This document shows, in pieces, positions 2,496 to 33,276 of a stretch of 36,416 nt of DNA; positions within the stretch are counted from its first letter, which is position 1; each line of letters starts with the position of its first letter. The notes under the pieces are model-generated. The model was not told the DNA's origin. It worked only from the letters and a program-made list of their open reading frames with translations, and searched no databases. Made by a program: the position numbers and the translations under genes. The DNA comes from a virus. Its lineage: Duplodnaviria > Heunggongvirae > Uroviricota > Caudoviricetes. The DNA lies in the IMG/VR virus record IMGVR_UViG_2648501873_000005, one strand, 5' to 3'.

Positions 2496-2571
2496 GGCCC
2501 TTTAGCTCAGTGGTGAGAGCGAGCGACTCATAATCGCCAGGTCGCTGGTTCAAATCCAGCAAGGGCCACCA
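2496..2571 (+). tRNA. ileZ: tRNA with anticodon CAT, Ile2 (lysidine) type
   Basis: Hand-folded cloverleaf: acceptor GGCCCTT/AAGGGCC, D-stem GCTC/GAGC, anticodon loop CTCATAA, T-loop GGTTCAAATCC, 3' CCA. Closely resembles E. coli tRNA-Ile2 (ileX) as recalled. Confidence 0.85.
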
Positions 2572-2578
2572 TCACATA

Positions 2579-2655
2579 CCGCCATTAGCTCATCGGGATA
2601 GAGCGCCAGCCTTCGAAGCTGGCTGCGCGGGGTTCAAGTCCCCGATGGCGGTCCA
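2579..2655 (+). tRNA. argN: tRNA-Arg, anticodon TCG
   Basis: Acceptor CCGCCAT/ATGGCGG, D-stem GCTC/GAGC, anticodon stem CCAGC/GCTGG with loop CTTCGAA, T-arm CGGGG-TTCAAGT-CCCCG, CCA end. 5' boundary uncertain by 1 nt. Confidence 0.8.
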
Positions 2656-3601: not shown

Positions 3602-3937
3602 TTATGGACTTTGTTGTTTTAGCCCATAAGGACATATTTGCAGAGTGCAACGGTTATTAAAGCATTCATTCAATACGTTATCTGTATTTGTAGGGCATTC
3701 CTGGCTGTTTTTGATTAAATTCCAGAATGTTTTATTGAATGGTACTACGTTGTAAATGGTTACAGGTAGCACTTTGTTATTGAGCATGATGCCTGTGTGA
3801 GTCAGTGTAAATATACTTTCAGGAGGTAAGAAAGCATCCGATTGATACCAGATTATTAATTTTATTTTACTCCATATGACTGAAAAAGATATTCCGCATG
3901 ATGGCTGGATAACTGTATCAATCACAATCCACTTCAT
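3602..3937 (-). CDS. Hypothetical protein (111 aa) in an AT-rich island
   Basis: Minus-strand ORF with AAGGAAAC ribosome-binding site 6 nt upstream of the ATG. The surrounding 3600-4180 region is visibly AT-rich against a roughly 50-55% GC background. No recognisable family. Confidence 0.4.
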
Positions 3938-4197
3938 TTAGTTTCCTTGTTTATGCCTTGCTGGTGATGTTCTGAAAAGTATAAATGATATTTTTGATTG
4001 TAAACCATAGAGCAGAATTATTTTTCTGATGTTGTTTATTGTTTATTTAAATGCAGGGTGGTTTATATCTCGTCTTGTAGTTTATCCATGCATATCTGCT
4101 TGATGATGAGGTTTTTATTTAAGGTATGGTTTTGTGTTTTTTCTGTATTACATGTCAGGTATTTTAAAGAATCATTTTTCAGATGGTGGAAAGAACC

Positions 4198-6092
4198 ATG
4201 GCATTTAAACACTATGATGTTGTCAGGGCGGCGTCGCCGTCAGATCTTGCGGAAAAGCTGACACATAAACTGAAAGAGGGCTGGCAGCCGTTTGGTAGTC
4301 CGGTGGCCATAACCCCTTATACCCTGATGCAGGCGATTGCAGCAGAAGGTGATGTGGTCGTCAGTGGTGCAACTGAGCCGGAGTGGTACTACGTCATCGT
4401 ACTGGCCGGGCAATCCAATGCCATGGCTTACGGTGAAGGGCTTCCGCTTCCGGATTCTTACGATGCGCCCCACCCACGCATTAAGCAACTGGCCCGTCGC
4501 AACACAGTGACTCCCGGTGGTAAAGCATGCGCATTTAACGACATCATTCCGGCAGACCACTGCCTGCATGATGTTCAGGATATGAGCGCACTGAATCATC
4601 CGAAGGCAGACCTGAGCAAAGGGCAGTACGGCTGTGTCGGCCAGGGCTTACATATTGCCAAAAAACTGCTTCCGTATATCCCGAATAACGCGGGGATCCT
4701 GCTGGTACCATGCTGTCGTGGTGGTTCGGCATTCACCCAGGGCGCGGAGGGGACATTCAGTGCGGACACGGGGGCCAGCCAGGATTCGGCACGCTGGGGT
4801 GTGGGTAAACCGTTATATCAGGACCTGATCGCACGCACCAAAGCGGCATTACAGAAGAACCCGAAAAATGTGTTGCTGGCGGTGTGCTGGATGCAGGGCG
4901 AATTTGACATGAGCGCTGCCACCTACGCACAGCAACCGGACCTGTTCACGGCCATGCTGAAGCAGTTCCGTACTGACCTTTCCGGATTTAACGCGCAGTG
5001 CCATGGCGGCAGTGCTGCAGTTGTACCGTGGATTTGTGGCGACACGACGTATTACTGGAAAAACACATACGGCACACAGTATGACTCCGTCTACGGCGCG
5101 TACAAAAACAGGGAGAGCGACAACGTTTTCTTTGTGCCGTTCATGACCGACGGTAACGGCAACAACACGCCCACCAACTTACCGGCAGAAGACCCGGATA
5201 TTGCTGATGCAGGTTATTACGGCGCGCAATCCCGTAGTAATGGTAATTGGGTATCGTCAAATCGTCCGACACATTTCAGTTCATGGGCGCGCAGGGGCAT
5301 TATTTCGGATCGCCTGGCAACCGCTATTCTGAACGCAGTTGGTCGAACCAGCGCCTTCATCAGCGGTACCGCACCGGAGATTAAACCCTCGCCCGGCGGC
5401 GACACGCCATCGGGGCCGTCTGATGGTGACACATCCGTTCGTACAGTCTCCCTGCTGCCGACAGCCGGAGAGGCTGCTGCGCAGGGCTGGACCATCACCG
5501 GCGGCAGTGTTGCGCTGGAAGATGGTGTGTTTAAGGTTACCAAGCAGAGCAATAAAACCTGGTCCCTGATGCATCCGGTGGATGACGCAGTCTCCCTGCT
5601 GACACGGGGTGGCAGACTGAGCTGTAAGTTTCGACTGTCAGGCGCACTGACCAACAACCAGTTCGGTCTGGGAATTTATCTGTATACCGATGTAGCGTTA
5701 CCTGACGTCGTGGCGATGACCGGGACTGGTAACCCGTTCCTGATGTCGTGGCGATGACCGGGACTGGTAACCCGTTCCTGATGTCGTTCTTCACCCAGAC
5801 CACAGACGGCAAACTGAATCTGATGCATCACAAGAAAGCCGGAAACACAAAGTTGGGCGAGTTCGGGAATTACAGTAACGACTGGCAGACGCTGGAGCTG
5901 GTGTTCACCGCCGGCAGTGCCACGGTTACTCCGAAACTGAATGGAGTGGCTGGCCCGGCATTCCAGGTCATAAAAGACAGTCTGACACTGGGGCTGAATG
6001 CGCTGACGCTGACGGATATTACCAAAAATGCAGCGTATGGCGTTGAGATAGAAAGTCTGGTGCTGGAGATAAATGCACCGGCATCATCATAA
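4198..6092 (+). pseudogene. nanS-p: NanS-p-like esterase (DUF1737 N-domain plus SGNH/SASA sialate O-acetylesterase domain), frameshifted
   Basis: N-terminus MAFKHYDVVRAASPSDL and SASA-like block VIVLAGQSNAMAYGEG. The reading frame breaks at a 38-bp tandem duplication at 5707-5782, so the gene appears as two track ORFs (4183-5757 and 5748-6092). Family assignment from memory. Confidence 0.7.
5707..5782 (+). repeat. Perfect 38-bp tandem duplication (2 copies) inside the esterase gene
   Basis: GTCGTGGCGATGACCGGGACTGGTAACCCGTTCCTGAT occurs twice consecutively. 38 is not a multiple of 3, so it causes a frameshift. Confidence 0.9.
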
Positions 6093-7684: not shown

Positions 7685-7774
7685 GCAGAATATTTTGCTA
7701 ATAAATGACGTTGGCCAAGGCGGACGGATAACACGAAATCCTGCGAACTGGCAAAATGTAAGTGAATAAAAGTA

Positions 7775-7812
7775 AAAACCCCGTTTGTTGGCAGCAAGCG
7801 GGGTTTTGTTTT
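7775..7812 (+). terminator. Bidirectional intrinsic terminator-like hairpin
   Basis: AAAACCCCGTTTG-loop-CAAGCGGGGTTTT, a 13-bp stem with one mismatch, flanked by an A-run upstream and a T-run downstream. Confidence 0.5.
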
Positions 7813-7976
7813 TATGGCAGTAAGCTATGGGAGGCTGCCTTGATTGATTTTAGCAAACTGATTAGGGAGTTGCGACTCATGATTAGTCAATTACCAAACT
7901 GGAAATTTTTGCTGGTCTGGAGCATCCCTTTTTTATGGGTAGTATCCCAGTTAATTGTGGCAATTAAGGGGTAGCT

Positions 7977-8108
7977 ATGTCAGACAAACTCATAACGCCG
8001 GCAAAGGTCCTGTGTGTGATTGTCGGTATTTCATTTTCACTAATGCTGGTTGCTCTTTTTCTGTCCCTCGCCTGGGTGATGTTGTCTTCGTCGGGGCTGC
8101 TGGGGTGA
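7977..8108 (+). CDS. Small hydrophobic membrane peptide (43 aa)
   Basis: ATG preceded by AAGGGG. Translation MSDKLITPAKVLCVIVGISFSLMLVALFLSLAWVMLSSSGLLG has one predicted transmembrane helix. Confidence 0.35.
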   Translation: MSDKLITPAKVLCVIVGISFSLMLVALFLSLAWVMLSSSGLLG

Positions 8109-8110
8109 CA

Positions 8111-8227
8111 GTGACTGATGACATCAGCAGAGCGCTGGCTTTTGCTATTAAGTGGGTGGCTGTTGGTATTGCTGTGTCTCCGATGCTGTATGGGCTGGCA
8201 AAACTGGTCATTGCGCTGAAATCGTGA
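8111..8227 (+). CDS. Small hydrophobic peptide (about 38 aa, GTG start), paralogous to the next ORF
   Basis: VTDDISRALAFAIKWVAVGIAVSPMLYGLAKLVIALKS. Shares the core RA[LM]AFAI[KR][WI]VA[VI] with the downstream peptide. Start codon uncertain. Confidence 0.3.
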   Translation: MTDDISRALAFAIKWVAVGIAVSPMLYGLAKLVIALKS

Positions 8228-8238
8228 ACTTTAAAAAG

Positions 8239-8325
8239 ATGAGTGCTGAACTTATTCGGGCAATGGCATTTGCCATTCGTATTGTGGCCATTGCTGTTCT
8301 GGTCTGGGCAATCCGTTGGTGGTGA
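8239..8325 (+). CDS. Small hydrophobic peptide (28 aa), paralogous to the previous ORF
   Basis: [28 protein letters not shown]. Its stop codon is 1 nt before the Rz ATG, suggesting translational coupling. Confidence 0.3.
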
Positions 8326-8326
8326 T

Positions 8327-8794
8327 ATGAACCGTGTTCTGTGTGTGGTGATTATTGTCCTGCTGGTAGCCTGTGGTGTGCTTAGTCTGGGGCTGAATCA
8401 TTACCGCGATAACGCCATCACCTACAAAGCGCAGCGCGATAAAAAAGTCAGTGAGCTGAAACTGGCGAACGCGACAATTACTGATATGCAGATACGCCAG
8501 CGTGATGTCGCTGAACTTGATGCCAGATACTCGAGGGAATTAGCCGATGCGAGAGCTGAAAATGAAACTCTGCGTGCTGATGTTGCCGCTGGTCGTAAGC
8601 GCCTGCGGATCAACGCCACCTGCTCCGGTACCGTGCGTGAAGCCACCGGCACCTCCGGCGTGGATAATGCAACCGGCCCCCGACTGGCAGACACCGCTGA
8701 ACGGGATTATTTCATCCTCAGAGAACGGTTGATGACAATGCAGAAGCAGCTGGAAGGGGCACAGGACTATATCCGCACTCAGTGCCTGAACTAA
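8327..8794 (+). CDS. Rz: i-spanin Rz
   Basis: N-terminal transmembrane segment followed by [16 protein letters not shown] and C-terminal [16 protein letters not shown], closely matching lambda Rz as recalled. Confidence 0.85.
8547..8732 (+). CDS. Rz1: o-spanin Rz1 (outer-membrane lipoprotein), embedded in the +1 frame of Rz
   Basis: [22 protein letters not shown].. with a lipobox and proline-rich body ending [23 protein letters not shown], matching lambda Rz1 as recalled. Confidence 0.8.
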
Positions 8795-9132
8795 GTTTTG
8801 CTGATGCGCCGTATCGTCGCTGTATTCCCTCATTAACAGAGACCGCAGCCCGACAGGGAGACTCCTCTGCGCGAGTGTGCGGGGATAATCAAAAACGATA
8901 CACACCGGGGTTTACCGCGTTAACGGAGCGCGGCGTTGTCCCCTCATAGTCGCCAGTCCGGTGCGATGGTGGAAGAAACAGGACGATGTGTTACCTCGCA
9001 AGCCCTGTTATGTCATGTGTCTGATTTGTGATTTAAGTCGGATAATTGTCGTTGCCATTAAGCAGAGGATTGATGACCGACAGGGCGGCATTGTTAGAAT
9101 AAGACTTATTCTTATCTGTGCGGGGAATGAAA

Positions 9133-9459
9133 ATGAAAAGAAATCTTCCGTTAATTATTTTGTTGTCTTCTCTGGTTATGGGCTGTACGCAACATAAAAC
9201 AGATATGCCCCGACAGTTGGTTAAGGCATTACCACAATATCCGGCCTATGCAGCGGCAAATTATATAAAGGGACGGGTTGATGTGAGGTTTGATATTGGT
9301 GCTGATGGTACTGTCACCCGAATTGAGTTTATTCGTTCAGAGCCGCACCATCTGTTTGATGAGCAGGTTGTAAAGGCGATGGCAAAATGGCGATTTGAGA
9401 AGGACAGGCCGTGTAAAGGCGTGAAGAAAACGTTTATCTTTAGTCCTTCTGCACACTGA
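9133..9459 (+). CDS. Lipoprotein with a TonB C-terminal-like domain (moron)
   Basis: Signal peptide and lipobox (LVMGC). Body YPAYAAANYIKGRVDVRFDIGADGTVTRIEFIRSEPHHLFDEQVVKAMAKWRFE fits the TonB_C pattern (YP..A...G.V.V.F.I..G.V...I..S......A.....W.F). SD GGGGA 6 nt upstream. Start could be 9127. Confidence 0.55.
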   Translation: MKRNLPLIILLSSLVMGCTQHKTDMPRQLVKALPQYPAYAAANYIKGRVDVRFDIGADGTVTRIEFIRSEPHHLFDEQVVKAMAKWRFEKDRPCKGVKKTFIFSPSAH

Positions 9460-9590
9460 TTATTTCATCAGAAATTAATTATCACTCTGTTGTTATTCTG
9501 TACATCCCGGCAGGGTAAGTATTGTTCCGTCGGATATGAAGATGAAATATTGTTGGAGGACAGTGGGTACCTGCTCCTGTAACCGAACGT

Positions 9591-9791
9591 TCATTTCTCG
9601 TTATTTGTCATGCTGGCCGGGCGCAGATGCGTTGCATCTGTTGCCAGCCTTCTCCTGCAGGCTTCAATAACCCACGCTGAAAAGTTACCGGACCCTTTAT
9701 GCTCAAGGGCGATGTTGATCTGTTCAATCATGTGATTGGGGAAACGGATATTGCGGGTTGTGGTTCTGCGGGTACGGTTTTTCGATGACAT
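9591..9791 (-). CDS. Small DNA-binding-like protein, YlcI/DUF3950-like
   Basis: Minus-strand ORF starting MSSKNRTRRTTTRNIRFPNHMIEQINIALEHKGSGNFSAWVIEACRRRL with AAAGGAAATAAAT then ATG. Resembles DLP12 ylcI by position and sequence as recalled. Confidence 0.45.
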   Translation of the reverse strand: MSSKNRTRRTTTRNIRFPNHMIEQINIALEHKGSGNFSAWVIEACRRRLATDATHLRPASMTNNEK

Positions 9792-9832
9792 ATTTATTTC
9801 CTTTACTGATTGCCATATGACGGGGATTTTAC

Positions 9833-10198
9833 ATGGCTGAGCTTCGTACACTCCAGAGCAGAATCAAAACACTGAATACCCGACGGGTGAATATTCTGAA
9901 GGGTGAACAGCGTCGTGTCAGTGGCAGTGCACGTGTTTCCCTCAAGCGTCATATCTGGCTCAGGGACGCCGGGCAGTGCCGTCTCTGTGGTCGTGTGGTT
10001 GACCTCTGTGACAGTGAACTCGATCACCGAATTGCACTTCAGTTCGGTGGTGGTAATGAGGAGACGAATCTCTGGACGCTCTGTACCGAATGCCATCGAC
10101 AAAAGTCTGCTCGTGAAGCGGCGAGTGATATGCCGGACCCGACGCTGCCGGAGGTGTCCGGAGGTAGTGGCAGAGAGGACGACATCATCGGACTGTAA
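9833..10198 (+). CDS. HNH endonuclease (packaging-associated)
   Basis: HNH motif CGRVVDLCDSELDHRIALQFGGGNEETNLWTLCTECHRQK. Sits directly upstream of the cos-like region and terminase, as in HK97-like phages. Confidence 0.8.
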   Translation: MAELRTLQSRIKTLNTRRVNILKGEQRRVSGSARVSLKRHIWLRDAGQCRLCGRVVDLCDSELDHRIALQFGGGNEETNLWTLCTECHRQKSAREAASDMPDPTLPEVSGGSGREDDIIGL

Positions 10199-10488
10199 CC
10201 CGACCCCGGGGGGGTATCATCCGGCGTAAAAAACGATCGCTTTGGACACCGCGCCCCCTCTCACGCAGAGAAAAAATTCCCGTTTCAGGGCAGTTAACAT
10301 GTTAACTGGCTGCCCGGGCATTTTTGCGGTTTTTATCTTTATTATTCAGTTTGTTGTGCGGAAAAAATGTTAACAGGCTTTTTCAGCAAATGTTAACCAG
10401 GCAGCAGTTAACATTTGCGGCATGAGACGCCGGGAAAAATGGGCTGAACCATACCCGGCTGAGTGCGTTCTGGACCCGGGAGGAGGCT
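10199..10488 (+). promoter_or_regulatory. Putative cos / terminase recognition region with clustered GTTAAC motifs
   Basis: Five GTTAAC palindromes at 10303, 10311, 10369, 10392 and 10407, mostly as ATGTTAAC or GTTAACAT, in the non-coding gap between HNH and TerS. Confidence 0.45.
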
Positions 10489-11052
10489 GTGCTGACAACG
10501 CAAAAACGAAAATTTGCGCTGGCGCTCATGTCCGGGAAAAACAAAACAGCGTCAGCCATTGCCGCCGGTTATTCGGCGAAGACCGCCAGGGTTAAAGGCT
10601 CGCAGCTGGCAAAAGATCCTGAGGTGCTTGCGTTTATAGCCCGTAAACAATGCGAGACGGTGGAGGTGGATGAGGTTCCTGTTTACCGGCAGAAAAAATC
10701 AGAGCAGGAGGATAAACCCCGTCGCCGTGAGGCGGCTGCAATACCACAGCCGGACGAAAACAATCTGGAGATGCCACCGTCCGCGGTGATGTCTCCTGGT
10801 ATTGAATATATGGAGGATGGTCTTCCCGATCCGGTGAAAGCCATGGGGCGGATCCTGGTGGAAAACCTCTGCATTGATCCGAAACTGGCACTGGATGCGG
10901 CCTGGCGTCTGGCGCAGTTCACGCACCATAAAAAAGGGGATACCGGGAAAAAATCGGCAAAAGGTGATGCCGCGAAAAAAGCGGCTAACCGTTTTGCGGT
11001 GCCACCGCCCCCCCGACTGGTGGTGAATAACGATAATGAGGGCAACGGATGA
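10489..11052 (+). CDS. Terminase small subunit
   Basis: 187 aa, GTG start after GGAGGAGG. N-terminal helix-turn-helix-like region; overlaps TerL start by 4 bp (ATGA). Confidence 0.75.
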   Translation: MLTTQKRKFALALMSGKNKTASAIAAGYSAKTARVKGSQLAKDPEVLAFIARKQCETVEVDEVPVYRQKKSEQEDKPRRREAAAIPQPDENNLEMPPSAVMSPGIEYMEDGLPDPVKAMGRILVENLCIDPKLALDAAWRLAQFTHHKKGDTGKKSAKGDAAKKAANRFAVPPPPRLVVNNDNEGNG

Positions 11053-12710
11053 TACCTGTATGGAGCACAGCCTGCCCGGACTGGGCAGAGCGCCTGAAAA
11101 AGGGGCTGTCGATTATTCCGGATCCGATTTATCCGGACGAGGCCGCACATGCCCTGGCGATTTTTAAACAACTGCGGATTGTGGATGCACCTGGTAGCCC
11201 TACGTTCGGGGAGTCCTGTGCACCGTGGGTGTTTGACCTGGTGGCGGCCCTGTTTGGCTCCTACGATGCGCAGACCGGTGTACGCCATATCAAGGAAGTT
11301 TTTATCCTTATCCCCAAGAAAAACTCGAAGTCCACGCTGGCCGCGGGGATCATGATGACTGCACTGTTACTGAACTGGCGGCAGGCGGCGGGTTACACGA
11401 TTCTGGCCCCGACTGTGGAGGTGGCGGCCAACGCCTTCAACCCTGCCCGGGATATGGTACGACGTGACGATGATCTGGATGACCTCTGCCAGGTACAGAC
11501 CCATATCCGGACCATCACCCACCGAGTGACGGACACCACCCTGAAGGTGGTGGCAGCCGATCCGAATACGGTGTCCGGTATCAAGTCCGTGGGTACGCTG
11601 ATTGATGAGTTGTGGCTGTTTGGCAAGCAGTGCAAGGCGGAGGACATGTTACGTGAAGCCATAGGCGGCCTTGCCTCCCGCCCGGAAGGGTTTGTGGTGT
11701 ATACGACCACCCAGTCGAATGAACCGCCCGCCGGGGTGTTCAGACAGAAACTGCAGTACGCCCGGGATGTGCGCGACGGCAAAATTCATGATCCGCACTT
11801 TCTGCCGGTGATATTTGAACACCCTCCTGAAATGGTGGAAAGCGGGGCTAACCTGCTGATGGAAAACCTCGCCATGGTCAATCCGAATCTCGGCTATTCA
11901 GTGGATGAGGCCTTTCTGTACCGGGAGTACCGTAAAGCCCGGGAAGCCGGTGAAGAGACATTCCGGGGGTTCATGTCAAAACACGCCAATGTGGAAATTG
12001 GTCTTGCCCTGCGCTCTGACCGCTGGGCGGGGGCTGATTTCTGGGAAGAGCAGGGCCGTTGTATCAGCCTGGACGATATCCTGCGTCGTGCTGATGTGGT
12101 GACGGTGGGGATTGACGGCGGAGGGCTGGATGATCTGCTGGGGATGTATGTGATTGGGCGTGACCGGGAGACCCGCGAATGGCTGGGCTGGGGCCATGCC
12201 TGGGCGCATGAAACCGCGGTGGTCCGACGGAAGAGCGAGGCGTCCCGGTTTCAGGATCTTGTTGCCTGTGGAGATATGACCATTGTCCGGCGTGTCGGGG
12301 ATGACACGGCGGAAGTGGCGGAATATGTGCGTCGCATTCATGAGGCTGAGTTACTGGACCATATCGGTATTGACCCGTCAGGGGTGGGGCAGATTCTGGA
12401 TTCACTGGCGGAAGCCGGGATCCCCGACGGAATTGTGGTGGGGATAAGCCAGGGCTGGAAACTGGGCGGGGCCATTAAAACCACCGAGCGCAAACTGGCT
12501 GAAGGGGTGCTGGTGCATGGTGACCAGCCCCTGATGGCCTGGTGTGTCGGCAATGCCCGGGTGGAGCCTAAAGGTAACGCCATTCTTATCACCAAACAGG
12601 CCAGTGGACGGGGAAAAATTGACCCGCTGATGGCGCTGTTCAATGCGGTCTCCCTGATGTCCCTTAACCCGGAACCGAAAAAGAAAGAATATGCGGTTTT
12701 TTTCATATAA
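11049..12710 (+). CDS. Terminase large subunit
   Basis: 553 aa, directly downstream of and overlapping TerS, with HK97-like ATPase/nuclease architecture. Family by recall. Confidence 0.85.
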   Translation: MIPVWSTACPDWAERLKKGLSIIPDPIYPDEAAHALAIFKQLRIVDAPGSPTFGESCAPWVFDLVAALFGSYDAQTGVRHIKEVFILIPKKNSKSTLAAGIMMTALLLNWRQAAGYTILAPTVEVAANAFNPARDMVRRDDDLDDLCQVQTHIRTITHRVTDTTLKVVAADPNTVSGIKSVGTLIDELWLFGKQCKAEDMLREAIGGLASRPEGFVVYTTTQSNEPPAGVFRQKLQYARDVRDGKIHDPHFLPVIFEHPPEMVESGANLLMENLAMVNPNLGYSVDEAFLYREYRKAREAGEETFRGFMSKHANVEIGLALRSDRWAGADFWEEQGRCISLDDILRRADVVTVGIDGGGLDDLLGMYVIGRDRETREWLGWGHAWAHETAVVRRKSEASRFQDLVACGDMTIVRRVGDDTAEVAEYVRRIHEAELLDHIGIDPSGVGQILDSLAEAGIPDGIVVGISQGWKLGGAIKTTERKLAEGVLVHGDQPLMAWCVGNARVEPKGNAILITKQASGRGKIDPLMALFNAVSLMSLNPEPKKKEYAVFFI

Positions 12711-26611: not shown

Positions 26612-29600
26612 ATGGGAAAAGGTGGCGGTAAGGCACACACGCCTCGTGAGGCGAAGGATAATCTCAAATCCACGCAGATGATGAGCGTGATTGATGCGAT
26701 TGGTGAGGGACCGATAGAAGGTCCGGTGAAGGGACTGCAGAGTATTCTGGTGAACAAAACCCCACTGACGGACACGGACGGCAATCCCGTGATACACGGT
26801 GTGACGGCGGTCTGGCGCGCCGGGGAGCAGGAGCAGACACCACCGGAAGGCTTTGAGTCCTCCGGAGCTGAAACCGGACTGGGCGTGGAAGTGACGAAGG
26901 CAAAACCGGTGACGCGCACCATTACGTCCGCGAACATTGACCGCCTGCGGGTTACCTTCGGGGTGCAGTCACTGGTGGAGACCACCTCAAAGGGTGACCG
27001 TAACCCGGCATCCGTCCGCCTGCTGATTCAGTTACAGCGTAACGGTAACTGGGTGACAGAAAAGGACGTCACCATTAACGGCAAGACCACCTCACAGTTC
27101 CTGGCCTCGGTGATTCTGGATAATCTGCCTCCCCGGCCCTTTAACATCCGGATGGTCAGGGAGACGGCGGACAGCACCACGGACCAGCTGCAGAATAAGA
27201 CGCTGTGGTCGTCATACACCGAAATCATCGATGTGAAACAGTGCTACCCGAACACGGCCATTGTGGGGCTGCAGGTGGATGCGGAGCAGTTCGGCGGCCA
27301 GCAGATGACGGTGAACTACCATATCCGCGGTCGCATCATCCAGGTGCCGTCAAACTATGACCCGGAAAAACGCACGTATAGTGGTATCTGGGACGGCAGT
27401 CTGAAACCGGCATACAGCAACAACCCGGCCTGGTGTCTGTGGGACATGCTGACTCACCCGCGCTACGGCATGGGAAAACGTCTGGGGGCGGCGGATGTGG
27501 ACAAGTGGGCGCTGTATGCCATCGGGCAGTACTGCGACCAGACGGTCCCGGATGGTTTCGGGGGGACCGAGCCGCGGATGACCTTTAATGCGTACCTGGC
27601 ACAACAGCGTAAGGCGTGGGACGTTCTCAGTGATTTCTGCTCTGCGATGCGCTGTATGCCGGTATGGAACGGTCAGACGCTGACGTTCGTTCAGGACCGC
27701 CCGTCGGATGTGGTGTGGCCGTACACCAACAGCGATGTGGTGGTGGATGATAACGGCGTGGGATTCCGCTACAGCTTCAGTGCCCTGAAGGACCGGCACA
27801 CGGCGGTGGAGGTGAATTACACCGACCCGCAGAACGGCTGGCAGACCTCCACGGAACTGGTGGAAGACCCGGAAGCCATACTGCGCTACGGACGCAACCT
27901 GCTGAAGATGGACGCGTTCGGCTGTACCAGCCGCGGTCAGGCCCACCGTGCCGGACTGTGGGTGATAAAGACCGAACTGCTGGAAACGCAGACGGTGGAT
28001 TTCACGCTCGGGTCTCAGGGGCTGCGGCACACACCCGGTGACATTATTGAAATCTGTGATAATGACTATGCCGGGACCCTGACCGGCGGACGTGTCCTGT
28101 CCATTGATGCTGCCACCCGCACCCTGACGCTGGACCGTGAGGTTACCCTGCCGGAGACAGGTACATCGGCGGTGAACCTGATTAACGGCAGCGGTAAGCC
28201 GGTGAGTGTGGACATCACCGCACACCCCGCGCCGGACCGGATACAGGTCAGTACCCTGCCTGATGGTGTGGAGACATACGGGGTGTGGGGACTCTCCCTG
28301 CCGTCACTGCGCCGTCGCCTGTTCCGCTGTGTCTCCATCCGGGAAAACACGGACGGCACCTTTGCCATCACGGCGGTGCAGCACGTACCGGAAAAAGAAG
28401 CCATCGTGGATAACGGTGCCCGCTTTGAGCCGCAGTCAGGTTCCCTGAACAGCGTCATCCCACCGGCAGTGCAGCACCTGACGGTGGAGGTGAGCGCAGC
28501 TGACGGCCAGTATCTGGCGCAGGCGAAATGGGACACGCCGCGGGTGGTGAAGGGTGTGCGCTTCAGTCTGCGCCTGACCAGTGGTAAGGGAACGGATGCC
28601 AGACTGGTGACCACCGCCATCACCGCAGACACGGAGCACCGTTTCAGCGGCCTGCCGCTCGGGGAATACACCCTGACGGTGCGGGCGATAAACAGCTATG
28701 GCCAGCAGGGTGAACCTGCCACCACCACCTTCCGGATTACCGCACCGGCAGCACCGTCGCGGATTGAGCTGACGCCGGGCTATTTTCAGATAACCGCAAC
28801 GCCACATCTTGCCGTTTATGACCCGACGGTACAGTTTGAGTTCTGGTTCTCGGAAAAGCGGATTGCGGATATCAGGCAGGTTGAAACCGCAGCCCGCTAT
28901 CTTGGCTCGGCGCTGTACTGGATAGCTGCCAGTATCAATATCAAACCGGGCCATGATTATTATTTTTATATCCGCAGTGTGAATACTGTTGGCAAATCGG
29001 CATTCGTGGAGGCTGTCGGTCGGGCGAGCGATGATGCGGAAGGTTACCTGGATTTTTTCAAAGGAGAAATCGGGAAAACACATCTGGCCCAGGAGCTGTG
29101 GACGCAGATTGATAACGGTCAGCTTGCGCCGGACCTGGCTGAAATCAGGACGTCCATTACGAATGTCAGCAATGAAATCACGCAGACCGTCAATAAAAAA
29201 CTGGAAAATCAGAGTGCGGCAATCCAGCAGATACAGAAAGTTCAGGTTGATACAAATAATAACCTGAACAGCATGTGGGCCGTGAAACTGCAGCAGATGC
29301 AGGACGGACGCCTTTATATTGCGGGTATCGGTGCCGGTATTGAGAATACGCCAGCAGGAATGCAGAGTCAGGTGCTGCTGGCGGCAGACAGGATTGCGAT
29401 GATTAATCCTGCGAATGGCAACACAAAGCCGATGTTTGTTGGTCAGGGCGATCAGATATTTATGAATGAAGTGTTCCTGAAATATCTGACGGCTCCCACC
29501 ATTACCAGCGGCGGTAATCCTCCGGCATTTTCCCTGACACCGGACGGGCGGCTGACGGCGAAAAATGCCGATATCAGCGGTAACGTGAATGCGAACTCCG

Positions 29601-30085
29601 GGACGCTCAACAACGTCACGATTAACGAGAACTGTCGGGTTCTGGGAAAATTGTCCGCGAACCAGATTGAAGGCGATCTCGTTAAAACAGTGGGCAAAGC
29701 TTTCCCCCGGGACTCCCGTGCACCGGAGCGGTGGCCATCAGGAACCATTACCGTCAGGGTTTATGACGATCAGCCGTTTGACCGGCAGATTGTTATTCCG
29801 GCGGTGGCATTCAGCGGCGCTAAACATGAGAAAGAGCATACTGATATTTACTCCTCATGCCGTCTGATAGTGCGGAAAAACGGTGCTGAAATTTATAACC
29901 GTACCGCGCTGGATAATACGCTGATTTACAGTGGTGTTATTGATATGCCTGCCGGTCACGGTCACATGACACTGGAGTTTTCGGTGTCAGCATGGCTGGT
30001 AAATAACTGGTATCCCACAGCAAGTATCAGCGATTTGCTGGTTGTGGTGATGAAGAAAGCCACTGCAGGCATCACGATTAGCTGA
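26612..30085 (+). CDS. J: Central tail fibre / host specificity protein J
   Basis: 1157 aa; N-terminus [22 protein letters not shown] and overall architecture match lambda J as recalled. Confidence 0.9.
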
Positions 30086-30903: not shown

Positions 30904-33276
30904 ATGACAGTAAAAATTTCTGGCGTGCTTAAAGATGGCACAGGAAAACCAGTACAGAACTGCACCATTGTGCTGAAGGCCAGACGAACCAGCAGCACGG
31001 TGGTGGTGAACACGGTGGCCTCTGAAAATCCGGATGAAGCCGGACGTTACAGCATGGATGTTGAGCATGGTCAGTACAGCGTCACCCTGCTGGTTGAAGG
31101 TTTTCCGCCTTCACATGCCGGGACCATTACCGTCTATGAAGGTTCCAGACCAGGCACGCTGAATGATTTTCTCGGTGCCATGACGGAAGAGGATGTCATG
31201 CCGGAGGCATTGCGTCGTTTTGAGGTAATGGTGGAAGAAGCGGCACGCAACGCTGAAGCCGCCTCTCAGAGCGCAGCGGCGGCAAAGAAATCCGAAACTG
31301 CAGCGGCATCATCGAAGAACGCGGCGAAAAACTCAGAAACGAATGCAGCTAACAGCGCACAGGCGGCAGCGGCCTCGCAGACTGCATCGGCAAATTCCGC
31401 GACAGCAGCTAAAAAATCAGAAACCAACGCGAAAAATAGCGAGACAGCAGCAAAGACGAGCGAAACCAACGCAAAGTCCAGCCAGACGGCAGCGAAGGCC
31501 AGCGAAACGAATGCCAAAGCCAGTGAAACTGCGGCGAAAAACAGCCAGACTGCAGCAGCTGAGAGCGAGAGCGCAGCAGCCGGTTCTGCGACTTCAGCAG
31601 CTGGAGCAGCAACTGCTGCGGCTAACAGCCAGAAAGCAGCGAAGACGAGTGAAACTAACGCAAAGTCCAGCCAGACGGCAGCGAAGACCAGCGAAACGAA
31701 TGCCAAAGCCAGCGAAACTGCGGCGAAAAACAGCCAGGTTGCAGCAGCCCAAAGCGAGAGCGCGGCAGCTGGTTCTGCAAGCGCGGCGGCTGCTTCTGCC
31801 ACTGCATCAGCCAACAGTCAAAAAGCGGCAAAAACCAGTGAAACCAATGCAAAGACAAGCGAGACTGCAGCGGCGAACTCGGCGAAAGCATCGGCAGCAA
31901 GCCAGACAGCAGCTAAAGCAAGTGAAGACGCAGCCAGAGAGTATGCAAGTCAGGCAGCAGAGCCGTATAAATATGTCTTACAGCCACTGCCTGATGTGTG
32001 GATACCGTTTAACGATTCACTGGATATGATTACGGGCTTTTCGCCGTCATATAAAAAAATTGTTATTGGTGACGATGAAATAACGATGCCTGGCGACAAG
32101 ATTGTTAAGTTTAAACGTGCATCGAAAGCAACCTATATTAACAAATCTGGTGTGCTGACAGAGGCTGCCATTGACGAGCCACGATTTGAACGTGATGGCC
32201 TGCTTATTGAGGGGCAAAGAACAAACTACATGCTCAATTCGGAAAGCCCTGCCAGTTGGGGGCGATCGTCAAATATGGATGTGCCCGAAACAGGGACGGA
32301 TAATTTTGGTTTTACCTATGGAAAGTTTGTCTGCAACGATTCTCTGATTGGGCAAACCTCAGCCATTAATATGGCATCAATTGCTGCAACAAAGTCAGTT
32401 GATGTCTCAGGCGATAATAAACACGTGACAACCTCATGTCGTTTTAAAACAGAACTGCAGGTAAGGTTGCGTATCCGGTTTGATAAATATGACGGTAGCG
32501 CAACAACTTTTCTTGGTGATGCGTATATTGATACACAAACGCTTGAAATTAATATGACAGGCGGTGCTGCCTCAAGAATTACAGCGAGAGTCAGAAAGGA
32601 CGAAGCTACCGGATGGATTTTTGCAGAGGCAACAATTCAGGCAATTGATGGGGAGTTTAAAATAGGCTCTCAGATACAGTATTCTCCTAAGCAGAGCGGG
32701 GCAACCGTATCTGGTGACTATATTTATCTGGCCACCCCACAAGTAGAAGATGGGCCTTGTGTATCATCTTTTATTATATCAGGAGCGACGGCGGCGACCC
32801 GCGCAAGCGATATAGTTACAGTTCCAATTAAGAATAATCTTTATAATCTTCCTTTTACGGTTCTTTGTGAGGTACATAAGAACTGGTATAAAACGCCAAA
32901 TGCAGCGCCACGTGTTTTTGATACCGGCGGTCATCAAACCGGAGCGGCTATTATTCTTGGCTTCGGTCGTTCAACATATTACGACGGATTTCCTTATTGC
33001 GATATTGGAGGAGCTAACAGACGGGTAAACGAAAACGCATCGCTTGAAAAAATGGTTATGGGGATGCGTGTAAAGTCAGAGCAGTCTACGTGCTCAGTAA
33101 GTAACGGGCATATATCCAGCGAAACAAAAACCACATGGTCCTGTATTCGGAACACCGCAATTATCCGTATTGGAGGCCAGACTACAGCCGGGTTACGTCA
33201 TTTATTTGGTCATGTCAGGAATTTCAGAATATGGCACAAGGCATTGACTGATGCTCAGGTGGGGGAGTCAATCTAA
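30904..33276 (+). CDS. stf: Side tail fibre protein (Stf-like)
   Basis: 790 aa; conserved N-terminus MTVKISGVLKDGTGKPVQNCTI.., then an Ala/Ser/Thr-rich repeat region (SETNAK motifs) and a divergent C-terminal domain with lower GC. Confidence 0.8.
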   Translation: MTVKISGVLKDGTGKPVQNCTIVLKARRTSSTVVVNTVASENPDEAGRYSMDVEHGQYSVTLLVEGFPPSHAGTITVYEGSRPGTLNDFLGAMTEEDVMPEALRRFEVMVEEAARNAEAASQSAAAAKKSETAAASSKNAAKNSETNAANSAQAAAASQTASANSATAAKKSETNAKNSETAAKTSETNAKSSQTAAKASETNAKASETAAKNSQTAAAESESAAAGSATSAAGAATAAANSQKAAKTSETNAKSSQTAAKTSETNAKASETAAKNSQVAAAQSESAAAGSASAAAASATASANSQKAAKTSETNAKTSETAAANSAKASAASQTAAKASEDAAREYASQAAEPYKYVLQPLPDVWIPFNDSLDMITGFSPSYKKIVIGDDEITMPGDKIVKFKRASKATYINKSGVLTEAAIDEPRFERDGLLIEGQRTNYMLNSESPASWGRSSNMDVPETGTDNFGFTYGKFVCNDSLIGQTSAINMASIAATKSVDVSGDNKHVTTSCRFKTELQVRLRIRFDKYDGSATTFLGDAYIDTQTLEINMTGGAASRITARVRKDEATGWIFAEATIQAIDGEFKIGSQIQYSPKQSGATVSGDYIYLATPQVEDGPCVSSFIISGATAATRASDIVTVPIKNNLYNLPFTVLCEVHKNWYKTPNAAPRVFDTGGHQTGAAIILGFGRSTYYDGFPYCDIGGANRRVNENASLEKMVMGMRVKSEQSTCSVSNGHISSETKTTWSCIRNTAIIRIGGQTTAGLRHLFGHVRNFRIWHKALTDAQVGESI
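31260..31930 (+). repeat. Internal coding repeats in stf, including a 195-bp (65-aa) duplication
   Basis: Two near-identical 65-aa units (SETNAKSSQTAAK.SETNAKASETAAKNSQ..AAAGSA..ANSQKAAKT) beginning near 31447 and 31642, plus shorter SETNAK-type sub-repeats. Confidence 0.6.

What the first reader, a model, noticed from the sequence alone, without database searches (positions are those of the whole stretch)
9133..9459. Moron encoding a lipoprotein with a TonB C-terminal-like domain
Between Rz/Rz1 and the packaging genes, where lambdoid phages often carry bor-type lipoprotein morons, this prophage carries a 108-113 aa lipoprotein whose mature part fits the TonB C-terminal domain pattern (YP..A, G.V.V.F.I, W.F). 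A periplasm-facing lipid-anchored TonB_C mimic could compete with TonB at TonB-box receptors such as FhuA, FepA and BtuB. That could block phages and colicins that need TonB-energised receptors, a superinfection exclusion mechanism mechanistically different from Cor or Llp.
Basis: partly seen in the sequence, partly recalled or inferred. Interest (0 to 1): 0.65.

Follow-up and report, generated by a model that had tools for sequence, protein, structure and literature searches.

The report
Prophage lipoprotein copying TonB's C-terminal domain
This E. coli prophage carries a small add-on gene for an outer-membrane lipoprotein that is a stand-alone copy of the receptor-docking domain of the host energy transducer TonB. 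Related copies sit in roughly a quarter of complete E. coli genomes and in classical phage 21, and I found no paper that tests what they do.

Summary
ORF 9133-9459 (+) encodes a 108-aa protein with a lipoprotein signal (LVMGC, Thr at +2) and one TonB C-terminal domain. Pfam TonB_C scores 55 bits against a cut-off of 24.6. The protein is about 40% identical to E. coli TonB 153-232, and the AF2 model superposes on TonB taken from the BtuB and FhuA complexes at 1.0-1.1 A.

The gene lies in a 604-bp, low-GC cassette (8980-9583) that a related phage lacks exactly. The cassette sits between an intact Rz/Rz1 pair and the HNH/terminase genes.

The family is under purifying selection (dN/dS 0.12). Clade 1 is in 415 and clade 2 in 1225 of 5426 complete E. 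coli genomes, including phage 21 and Nissle 1917. It also occurs in Klebsiella prophages and as single chromosomal genes in other Enterobacterales. Databases already call it "TonB family protein".

New here: most non-E. coli members carry a strong Fur-box-like sequence 10-47 nt upstream of the start codon. The window has only a weak one at the same position.

The proposed function, a non-energised competitor at TonB boxes that blocks TonB-dependent phages and colicins, is plausible and has an experimental precedent, but it is untested. The phage's own J is of the lambda/21 type, not the FhuA type, so any exclusion would act on other phages. An iron-uptake accessory role is a serious rival.

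The parts
8980..9583 (+). Moron cassette of 604 bp, present or absent as a unit and flanked by AAC on both sides
   Evidence: Phage vB_EcoS-569R3 joins ...GGTGGAAGAAAC directly to CGAACGTTCATTTC.... GC is 0.426 against 0.529 in the flanks. The junctions are conserved in IMG/VR loci. The cassette, including its upstream region, is 70% identical in DNA to the phage 21 cassette.
9073..9100 (+). Sigma-70 promoter-like site: ATGACC, 16-nt spacer, TAGAAT, with TG of an extended -10 at 9092-9093
   Evidence: Consensus scan gives 9 of 12 matches. The region has 4 such sites against 2.0 +/- 1.4 in shuffles, so this is weak on its own. The -10 block is nearly invariant in 80 clade-1 loci.
9096..9112 (.). 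Perfect 8+1+8 palindrome AGAATAAG-A-CTTATTCT overlapping the -10. It is contained in a 13/19 Fur-box-like 19-mer at 9098-9116 (minus strand) that ends 16 nt before the ATG.
   Evidence: A 13/19 match is common by chance (16 in the 36-kb window). It lies at the position where other clades have 14-17/19 Fur boxes. The block is identical in 73 of 80 clade-1 loci.
9122..9126 (+). Shine-Dalgarno GGGGA, 6 nt before ATG 9133
   Evidence: Read directly from the sequence.
9133..9459 (+). CDS of 108 aa, a TonB_C lipoprotein (WP_000828071.1, 'TonB family protein')
   Evidence: The ORF is intact in 80 of 80 IMG/VR loci, and dN/dS against the phage 21 allele is 0.115.
9133..9186 (+). Lipoprotein signal peptide and lipobox (residues 1-18; Cys18 is the acylated residue). 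Residue +2 is Thr.
   Evidence: Sequence pattern K2 R3 / LPLIILLSSLV / VMGC. Cys is invariant in alignment A2. The +2 residue is T, S or A in all members seen and never D.
9208..9441 (+). TonB C-terminal domain, residues 26-103, equivalent to E. coli TonB 153-230. Predicted secondary structure is alpha-beta-beta-alpha-beta, ending 5 residues after beta3.
   Evidence: phmmer alignment to 1u07, 2gsk and 2grx. AF2 secondary structure H38-42, E47-55, E61-70, H76-84, E94-103. Foldseek matches.
8327..8794 (+). Context: Rz i-spanin, with Rz1 o-spanin embedded at 8547-8732
   Evidence: phrog_13 at E 7e-76 and phrog_3198 at E 2e-31. The phage has its own complete spanin pair.
9591..9791 (-). Context: YlcI/YnfO (DUF3950) gene, outside the cassette
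   Evidence: RefSeq annotation of the identical DNA and phrog_949.
9833..12710 (+). Context: HNH endonuclease, small terminase (10489-11052) and large terminase (11049-12710)

Best explanation
The gene makes a small lipoprotein anchored in the inner leaflet of the outer membrane. Its periplasmic part is a stand-alone TonB C-terminal domain on a tether of about 8 residues. It has no transmembrane anchor, no proline-rich spacer and no contact with ExbB/ExbD, so it cannot transmit energy.

The most likely mechanism is non-productive occupation. Its exposed beta3 edge would pair with the TonB-box strand of TonB-dependent transporters such as FhuA, FepA, CirA and BtuB, or with the TonB boxes of group B colicins. 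Alternatively it could pair with TonB's own C-terminal domain. Either way it would compete with real TonB and damp TonB-dependent import.

A lysogen would then be less sensitive to TonB-dependent phages, colicins and microcins, at some cost in siderophore and B12 uptake. In many lineages, and weakly if at all in this one, expression appears tied to iron starvation through Fur. That is when the transporters are most abundant.

Shown here: the lipoprotein signal, the TonB_C sequence and predicted fold, the cassette structure, purifying selection, the distribution, and the Fur-box-like sites. Inferred: outer-membrane location, TonB-box binding, the inhibitory direction of the effect, and the protective phenotype.
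For: 1. Sequence and fold identity with the TonB domain that docks on transporters. The model superposes at 1.0-1.1 A on TonB as seen bound to BtuB and FhuA (2gsk_B, 2grx_C).
2. The positions of the TonB YP motif, Gly186 and TonB's aromatic residues are kept: Y36 P37 for Y163 P164, F53 for F180, G59 for G186, F75 for F202, W86 for W213, F88 for Y215, F103 for F230 (alignments). That these residues matter functionally is from my memory of the TonB literature.
3. The best NCBIfam matches are to enterobacterial TonB models, not the generic domain model. This fits a domain derived from a TonB of the host's own kind.
4. The lipobox Cys is invariant and no member has Asp at +2. Under the established Lol sorting rule this places the domain next to the periplasmic face of the transporters.
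5. Precedent: an over-produced periplasmic TonB domain inhibits iron import through transporters (Howard 2001, cited in PMC9841981). T5 Llp and the Cor proteins are phage outer-membrane lipoproteins that act on FhuA from the periplasmic side (preprint 10.64898/2026.03.26.714494).
6. It is a real, selected gene. dN/dS is 0.115, 80 of 80 ORFs are intact, and it is kept at the same lysis-to-packaging slot in at least four phage backgrounds.
7. Fur-box-like sequences of 14-17/19 lie directly upstream in most non-E. coli clades. The background rate for 15/19 or better is 2e-5 per position and strand, and the sitA promoter control scores 17/19. This ties the family to the physiology of TonB-dependent uptake.
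Against: - I found no experiment on this protein, and ten literature searches turned up nothing on its function.
- A pure inhibitor of iron uptake that is switched on by iron starvation, and that also exists as a single chromosomal gene in Raoultella, Klebsiella, Serratia and Erwinia, is paradoxical unless the benefit is protection.
- Transporters far outnumber TonB under iron starvation (from memory), so blocking them would need a very abundant lipoprotein.
- The phage's own J is of the lambda/21 type, not the FhuA type. There is no self-exclusion logic of the Cor or Llp kind.
- In this window the Fur-like site is only 13/19, and phage 21 has none at 11/19.
- There is no PADLOC hit.
- I could not model a complex with a TonB-box peptide with the tools at hand.
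Confidence: 0.4

Rival explanations
1. It is a positive accessory factor of TonB-dependent uptake, a fitness or virulence moron like sitABCD or iss. The outer-membrane-tethered TonB_C domain would transiently hold or protect extended TonB boxes of loaded transporters, or organise transporters. Scarce TonB would then find them faster under iron starvation.
For: Strong Fur-box-like sites lie upstream of chromosomal and prophage members. Single-gene chromosomal copies sit in non-phage contexts. In phage 21 and in Nissle 1917 the gene travels with iss/bor and with the Fur-regulated Fe/Mn importer sitABCD. Mathieu et al. 2020 note that phage sit operons are integrated into the Fur regulon (PMC6969025).
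Against: The domain has no link to ExbBD, so it cannot do work. The one relevant experiment, over-produced periplasmic TonB fragments, gave inhibition and not stimulation. The sit linkage holds in one phage lineage only: 20 of 27 sit-carrying phage records lack the gene, and clade-1 phages lack sit.
Confidence: 0.22
2. The TonB_C fold is used here to bind something other than a TonB box. Candidates are a periplasmic or imported protein, as the TonB homologue FusB binds ferredoxin, or peptidoglycan. The protein would then be an outer-membrane tether or capture module unrelated to competition with TonB.
For: FusB C-terminal-domain structures, including the complex with ferredoxin (9hi3), are among the fold matches. 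Family-specific conserved motifs differ from TonB: SEPxHLFD against AKPANMFE, L/Y/H at the Q160 position, and no beta4.
Against: The closest sequence relatives outside the family are enterobacterial TonB C-terminal domains. All residues that mark a canonical TonB CTD are kept. No candidate ligand is encoded nearby.
Confidence: 0.13
3. It is a lysis protein, a spanin-type component, as its PHROG family label 'Rz-like spanin' says.
For: phrog_1267 is labelled 'Rz-like spanin' and matches at E 6e-42. The gene always lies just after the lysis cassette, and the product is an outer-membrane lipoprotein, as o-spanins are.
Against: The phage already has a complete embedded Rz/Rz1 pair. The gene is an optional cassette that sister phages with the same lysis genes lack. 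It also occurs as a lone chromosomal gene far from any lysis gene. It is a folded TonB_C domain, unlike the short proline-rich o-spanins, and it has no C-terminal transmembrane segment as u-spanins do. The label is most likely annotation transferred by position.
Confidence: 0.03
4. It is a decaying fragment of a captured tonB gene with no function, as the label 'partial tonB-like' implies.
For: Labels such as 'Partial tonB-like membrane protein' and 'TonB fragment' appear on phage records.
Against: It has its own lipoprotein signal, which TonB lacks. dN/dS is 0.115 across clades that differ at a dS of about 1.7. 80 of 80 ORFs are intact. It has a conserved length of about 108-111 aa across at least four clades and several genera.
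Confidence: 0.03

Closest known systems
C-terminal domain of E. coli TonB (PDB 1U07, 1XX3; in complex with BtuB 2GSK and FhuA 2GRX)
   Same: About 40% identity over TonB 153-232. Same alpha-beta-beta-alpha-beta fold (TM 0.91-0.92, rmsd 1.0-1.3 A). The YP motif, the aromatic residues and the beta3 strand that pairs with TonB boxes are kept.
   Different: No N-terminal transmembrane helix, no proline-rich spacer and no ExbB/ExbD coupling. It is lipid-anchored, probably to the outer membrane. It ends 5 residues after beta3 and so lacks TonB 236-239. Leu replaces Gln160 and Tyr replaces Arg166. It scores 59-74 bits against cut-offs of 265-448 for the full-length TonB models.
Engineered periplasmic TonB fragments that act as dominant negatives (Howard, Herrmann, Stratilo and Braun 2001, J Bacteriol 183:5885)
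   Same: A TonB C-terminal domain placed in the periplasm without its energy-coupling anchor. Reported to inhibit uptake through FhuA and FecA (cited in PMC9841981).
   Different: Those are artificial, soluble and over-produced. This one is natural, lipid-anchored, phage-borne, shorter, and diverged to about 40% identity. I could not read the paper itself.
Cor (phi80, N15, HK022) and Llp (T5) superinfection-exclusion lipoproteins
   Same: Small phage-encoded lipoproteins of the inner leaflet of the outer membrane that act on a TonB-dependent transporter from the periplasmic side.
   Different: No sequence similarity and a different fold; no Llp or Cor structure appears among the fold matches. 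Cor and Llp are specific for FhuA, work allosterically on its surface loops, and protect against the very phage that encodes them. Here the phage's J is of the lambda/21 type, and the expected target, the TonB box, is generic.
Bor / Iss lipoprotein morons of lambdoid phages
   Same: Same genomic slot between the lysis genes and cos or terminase. Both are small lipoproteins and accessory genes. In phage 21 and Nissle 1917 the two genes lie about 480 bp apart.
   Different: Unrelated sequence; Pfam finds only TonB_C. bor is on the opposite strand. Its known role is serum resistance.
Specialised TonB paralogues (FusB, HasB, TonB2)
   Same: TonB_C domains adapted to particular partners. FusB is among the best fold matches.
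   Different: Those are inner-membrane-anchored energy transducers with spacers. This is the bare domain on a lipid anchor.

Membership tests
TonB_C domain (Pfam PF03544 / TIGR01352) | Profile score above the curated cut-off | tested here: met
   PF03544 55.4 bits against 24.6. TIGR01352 55.2 bits against 27.1.
TonB_C domain (Pfam PF03544 / TIGR01352) | alpha-beta-beta-alpha-beta fold of the TonB C-terminal domain | tested here: met
   AF2 model with pLDDT above 95 in the domain. Foldseek top 11 matches are all TonB or FusB C-terminal domains, with TMt up to 0.92 and rmsd 1.0 A. TolA domain III scores only E 0.1.
TonB_C domain (Pfam PF03544 / TIGR01352) | Binds the TonB box of transporters by beta-strand pairing | not testable with these tools
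   The beta3 strand is present and no following strand is predicted to cover it. No complex could be modelled, and there are no binding data.
TonB energy transducer (NCBIfam PRK10819 equivalogs) | Full-length score above the equivalog cut-off | tested here: not met
   49-74 bits against cut-offs of 265-448. Only the last 80 or so profile positions match.
TonB energy transducer (NCBIfam PRK10819 equivalogs) | N-terminal transmembrane anchor that couples to ExbB/ExbD, and a proline-rich periplasmic spacer | tested here: not met
   The protein has 108 aa. Residues 1-18 are a cleavable lipoprotein signal, and only about 8 residues separate Cys18 from the domain.
Bacterial lipoprotein (outer-membrane sorted) | n-region, h-region and lipobox [LVI][ASTVIM][GAS]C | tested here: met
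   MKRN / LPLIILLSSLV / VMGC. Cys is invariant in 13 diverse members.
Bacterial lipoprotein (outer-membrane sorted) | No Asp at +2 (Lol avoidance signal) | tested here: met
   The +2 residue is T, S or A in every sequence seen. Actual localisation has not been measured.
Phage moron | Discrete insertion between conserved phage genes, absent from close relatives, with deviant composition | tested here: met
   604-bp cassette missing exactly in vB_EcoS-569R3. GC is 0.43 against 0.53.
Phage moron | Own promoter and terminator, with expression from the repressed prophage | tested here: inconclusive
   A promoter-like site with an extended -10 and an operator-like palindrome is present. No intrinsic terminator was found. 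I examined no expression data.
Cor / Llp exclusion lipoproteins | Sequence or fold similarity to Cor or Llp | tested here: not met
   tblastn of phi80 Cor against the window gives only chance hits. No Llp or Cor structure appears among the PDB fold matches, and BFVD gives no hit at E <= 1e-3.
Cor / Llp exclusion lipoproteins | Encoded by a phage that itself uses the targeted TonB-dependent receptor | tested here: not met
   The C-terminal 260 aa of J are 77% identical to phage 21 and 56% to lambda. Only a 60-aa stretch of that 260-aa segment aligns to phi80 J, and it does not reach phi80's C-terminal end. The receptor itself was not determined.
Spanins (PHROG 1267 label 'Rz-like spanin') | Required outer-membrane partner of the i-spanin, genetically coupled to it | tested here: not met
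   A separate complete Rz/Rz1 pair is present. The gene is optional and also occurs away from any lysis genes.
Fur regulon member | Fur box overlapping the promoter | tested here: inconclusive
   The window has 13/19, a score that is common by chance, though it lies at the family's conserved position. Other clades have 14-17/19. Phage 21 has none. No binding or expression test was run.

The most novel reading that the evidence does not exclude
A phage-borne copy of the host's own TonB docking domain, tethered to the outer membrane, acts as a general cap on TonB boxes or as a trap for TonB. One 108-aa protein would then make lysogens refractory to the whole class of TonB-dependent phages, colicins, microcins and siderophore-antibiotic conjugates. 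In many lineages it would be switched on by Fur exactly when the transporters are derepressed. Because between 23% and 30% of complete E. coli genomes carry one, including Nissle 1917, it would be a common and overlooked determinant of sensitivity to such agents.
Probability: 0.3. Interest if true: 0.8.

Novelty: new variant of a known kind. Interest (0 to 1): 0.6.

Why it matters
TonB-dependent transporters are entry gates for many phages, for group B colicins and microcins, and for siderophore-conjugated antibiotics. If this lipoprotein damps TonB coupling, it would be a receptor-independent way for a prophage to shield its host, distinct from the FhuA-specific Cor and Llp proteins. It would also be a natural counterpart of the laboratory dominant-negative TonB fragment.

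It could explain strain-to-strain differences in sensitivity to phages, colicins and siderophore-conjugated drugs in a large share of E. coli, including the probiotic Nissle 1917 and Shiga-toxin phage lysogens. If it instead helps iron uptake, it joins sitABCD as an iron-related fitness gene spread by gut phages. Either outcome is directly testable with standard assays, and the gene sits in classical phage 21.

Tried and rejected
- **Spanin role.** Rejected: an intact Rz/Rz1 pair is present and the gene is optional.
- **Cor-like self-exclusion.** Rejected: there is no cor homologue, and J is of the lambda/21 type.
- **Functional coupling with sitABCD.** All 7 phage records with the clade-2 gene carry sit. 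But 20 other sit-carrying phage records lack the gene and clade-1 phages lack sit, so the link is co-inheritance in one lineage.
- **Fur regulation of the E. coli alleles.** The window has only 13/19, one of 16 such matches in the window. Phage 21 has 11/19. I do not claim it for this locus.
- **Known defence system.** No PADLOC hit.
- **RNA element in the cassette.** No Rfam match at E <= 1. No intrinsic terminator.
- **Other viral proteins with this fold.** BFVD gave no match at E <= 1e-3.
- **Searches that failed for technical reasons.** The search for related loci with the 13-sequence alignment on genome contigs failed for lack of a conserved stretch, so I repeated it with a 5-sequence alignment.
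- **Papers not held in the library.** Howard et al. 2001 (PMC99666) and the MMBR article I recalled as covering lambdoid hybrid phages (doi 10.1128/mmbr.00124-21) could not be read.
Full report
**What is at the coordinates.**
The window is a lambdoid E. coli prophage. The stretch 8800-9900 is 100% identical to several RefSeq chromosomes, such as EcPF7. Three in-frame starts are possible: GTG 9118, ATG 9127 and ATG 9133. ATG 9133 has a GGGGA Shine-Dalgarno six bases upstream, and RefSeq annotates the same 108-aa product, WP_000828071.1, as 'TonB family protein'.

The N-terminus MKRNLPLIILLSSLVMGC-TQ is a lipoprotein signal, with a basic n-region, an 11-residue hydrophobic core and the lipobox VMGC. 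The Cys is invariant across 13 diverse relatives. The residue after it is Thr, Ser or Ala in every member I saw and never Asp. By the established Lol sorting rule this predicts an outer-membrane lipoprotein facing the periplasm.

**The TonB_C assignment is solid.**
- Pfam PF03544 scores 55.4 bits against a cut-off of 24.6 (E 8.6e-15).
- TIGR01352 scores 55.2 bits against 27.1. The top NCBIfam matches are to the last 80 or so positions of the enterobacterial TonB models, but far below their full-length cut-offs.
- phmmer against all PDB sequences returns only TonB C-terminal domains. Residues 26-104 align without gaps to E. coli TonB 153-232.
- An AF2 model has pLDDT above 95 across residues 31-100, with a low-confidence tether.
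- The model matches 1u07, TonB from the BtuB complex (2gsk_B) and TonB from the FhuA complex (2grx_C) at target-normalised TM-scores of 0.91-0.92 and rmsd 1.0-1.3 A. TolA domain III is far weaker.

From the alignments, the YP motif, Gly186 and the aromatic positions F180, F202, W213, Y215 and F230 of TonB are all kept. Gln160 is Leu and Arg166 is Tyr. The chain stops five residues after beta3, so the last TonB residues are missing. From memory, TonB Q160L is a classical suppressor of TonB-box mutations, so Leu there is compatible with TonB-box contact. I did not test this.

**It is not TonB, not a spanin and not Cor.**
It has no transmembrane anchor and no proline-rich spacer, so it cannot couple to ExbB/ExbD. 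Its PHROG family (phrog_1267, E 6e-42) is labelled 'Rz-like spanin'. However, the phage has a complete Rz (phrog_13) with an embedded Rz1 (phrog_3198) just upstream, and the gene is optional, as shown in the next section. The label therefore looks like annotation by position. phi80 Cor finds nothing in the window, no Llp or Cor structure appears among the PDB fold matches, and BFVD has no significant structural match. PADLOC has no hit.

**It is a moron cassette.**
Phage vB_EcoS-569R3 has the same flanks but joins ...GGTGGAAGAAAC directly to CGAACGTTCATTTC.... That defines a 604-bp insert at 8980-9583, flanked by AAC on each side. Its GC content is 0.43 against 0.53 in the flanks.

Upstream of the gene lies a promoter-like site, ATGACC-16-TAGAAT with an extended -10 TG. 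By the scan's own statistics this is weak evidence. A perfect 8+1+8 palindrome at 9096-9112 overlaps the -10. That block is identical in 73 of 80 related IMG/VR loci. No terminator was found, and Rfam finds nothing. The gene points the same way as the late operon, so I expect it also to be transcribed late in lytic growth. That is an inference from lambdoid gene organisation.

**Distribution and selection.**

| Group | Where found |
|---|---|
| Clade 1 (this allele) | 415 of 5426 complete E. coli genomes, up to 4 copies each; four Stx1a phages, JLK-2012, Lys8385Vzw |
| Clade 2 (about 70% aa identity) | 1225 of 5426 genomes, including Nissle 1917 and ATCC 11775; classical phage 21 |
| P0034-type and P0038-type | IMG/VR prophage contigs; Klebsiella phage ST13-OXA48phi12.4 |
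| Short lipoprotein relatives (34-51% identity) | Single chromosomal genes in ordinary contexts in Raoultella, Klebsiella, Serratia, Erwinia, Pantoea and Pseudescherichia |

In phage 21 the gene is annotated 'TonB C-terminal domain protein'. It lies after bor and before cos and Nu1. So the same cassette, including its upstream DNA at 70% nucleotide identity, sits at the same slot in a phage with a different packaging module.

The two further prophage clades again lie between the lysis genes and the terminase. One relative, in Serratia, is again in a prophage. Only 15 of 50,697 phage records encode the family, and all are temperate.

Between clades 1 and 2, dN/dS is 0.115. dS is about 1.7 and therefore saturated; dN is 0.19. 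All 80 IMG/VR copies are intact. This is a maintained gene and not a tonB remnant.

**A new link to iron regulation.**
I scanned the 200 nt upstream of each homologue with the Fur consensus GATAATGATAATCATTATC.
- Matches of 15-17/19 lie 10-47 nt before the start codon in 9 of 13 non-E. coli genomic loci. Only one other match of 15/19 or better occurs in 190 kb.
- The additional prophage clades have 12-16/19, most of them 14 or more, at the same position, 15-18 nt upstream.
- The background rate of 15/19 or better is about 2e-5 per position and strand. The known Fur-regulated sitA promoter scores 17/19 as a positive control.
- The window's palindrome is part of a 13/19 match that ends 16 nt before the ATG. 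That is the same position, but 13/19 occurs 16 times in this window by chance.
- Phage 21 has no match (11/19).

So the family as a whole looks Fur-controlled. For this particular allele the evidence is weak.

**The phage's own receptor.**
The last 260 residues of J are 77% identical to phage 21 J and 56% to lambda J over their whole length. Only a 60-residue stretch of that segment aligns to phi80 J, and it does not reach phi80's C-terminal end. This is the lambda/21 kind of receptor-binding domain, which in lambda binds the porin LamB. It is not the FhuA-binding kind. The receptor itself was not determined. There is no cor gene. Any phage exclusion by the lipoprotein would therefore act on other phages.

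**Mechanism.**
The best-supported reading is an outer-membrane-tethered, energy-dead TonB docking domain. It would occupy TonB boxes of transporters or of incoming group B colicins, or it would pair with TonB's own C-terminal domain. Either way it would compete with productive TonB coupling.

There are two precedents. Over-production of the periplasmic TonB domain inhibits iron import through E. coli transporters (Howard et al. 2001, as cited in PMC9841981; the paper itself was not available). Phage lipoproteins Llp and Cor act on FhuA from the periplasmic face. Fur control would fit a protective role, because the transporters, and hence the vulnerability, peak under iron starvation.

I put this at about 0.4. 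The steps from fold to binding, and from binding to phenotype, are inferred.

The main rival, at about 0.2, is a helper of TonB-dependent uptake. It is favoured by the Fur boxes, by the chromosomal single-gene copies, and by the company of iss and sitABCD in phage 21 and Nissle 1917. That linkage is confined to one lineage. A different ligand, as with FusB and ferredoxin, is possible at about 0.13. The spanin and pseudogene readings are essentially excluded.

**Novelty.**
The domain resemblance is already in public annotation, so the observation itself is not new. Ten full-text searches found no study of the protein's function. A survey of morons in gut lambda phages that includes a carrier, ev017, does not mention it in its main text.

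An outer-membrane-anchored TonB domain as a phage accessory gene would be a new variant of two known things: phage lipoproteins that target TonB-dependent transporters, and dominant-negative TonB fragments. Three points make it worth testing. It is very common, it sits in phage 21 and in Nissle 1917, and most of the family shows an apparent tie to Fur.

Noticed in passing
L084-L090, L092, L095 (10-47 nt upstream of each homologue); L136-L174 (15-18 nt upstream); window 9098-9116: Fur-box-like sequences of 14-17/19 lie directly upstream of most non-E. coli members of the TonB_C lipoprotein family, both chromosomal and prophage-borne. Examples are GGTAATGAAAATCATTATC in Serratia grimesii and AGTATTGATAATCATTATC in L144. 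The window has only 13/19 at the equivalent position, and phage 21 has none.
   Followed up: yes
L131 8468-10501 (phage 21); L134 2861-6310 (Nissle 1917): Phage 21 and the phage-21-like prophage at icd in Nissle 1917 carry sitABCD, a Fe/Mn importer that needs no TonB at the outer membrane, together with iss/bor and the clade-2 TonB_C lipoprotein. All 7 phage records with the clade-2 gene have sit. But 20 other sit-carrying phage records lack the gene and clade-1 phages lack sit, so this is probably co-inheritance.
   Followed up: partly
window 9133-9459: PHROG family 1267, which this protein matches at E 6e-42, is labelled 'Rz-like spanin'. Given the TonB_C fold and the separate intact Rz/Rz1 pair, the label looks like a mis-annotation that will spread to phage genome annotations.
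   Followed up: yes
window 26612-30085: The receptor-binding end of J (last 260 aa) is 100% identical to VT1-Sakai and the PPompW prophages, 77% to phage 21 and Nissle 1917, and 56% to lambda. The two E. coli phage backbones that carry the two TonB_C clades, each with a different packaging module, thus share a related J tip.
   Followed up: partly
window 4183-6092: Two consecutive ORFs (4183-5757 and 5748-6092) correspond to a gene that RefSeq marks as frameshifted in the identical EcPF7 DNA ('DUF1737 domain-containing protein'). The gene is intact in strain AF58, where it is a SASA family carbohydrate esterase of 1857 bp.
   Followed up: no
window 2496-2655 and 3602-3937: Two tRNA genes lie downstream of the Q antiterminator region. 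One has anticodon CAU, which RefSeq calls tRNA-Ile, and the other is tRNA-Arg UCG. A minus-strand gene for the anti-adapter IraM follows; it is another accessory gene in the late region.
   Followed up: no
window 7762-8325: Several short hydrophobic ORFs, annotated as 43-, 51- and 28-aa hypothetical proteins in RefSeq, fill the gap of about 640 bp between the lysozyme gene and Rz. One of them matches phrog_6632, of unknown function.
   Followed up: no
window 31240-32030: The side tail fibre ORF (30904-33276) contains a long, highly repetitive Ala/Ser/Glu/Thr/Lys-rich stretch with units such as KTSETNAKSSQTAAK.
   Followed up: no
L133 21036-21060: In the Nissle 1917 prophage a 14-15/19 Fur-box-like sequence lies about 700 bp downstream of the TonB_C gene and about 220 bp upstream of the small terminase gene. 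Its significance is unknown.
   Followed up: no
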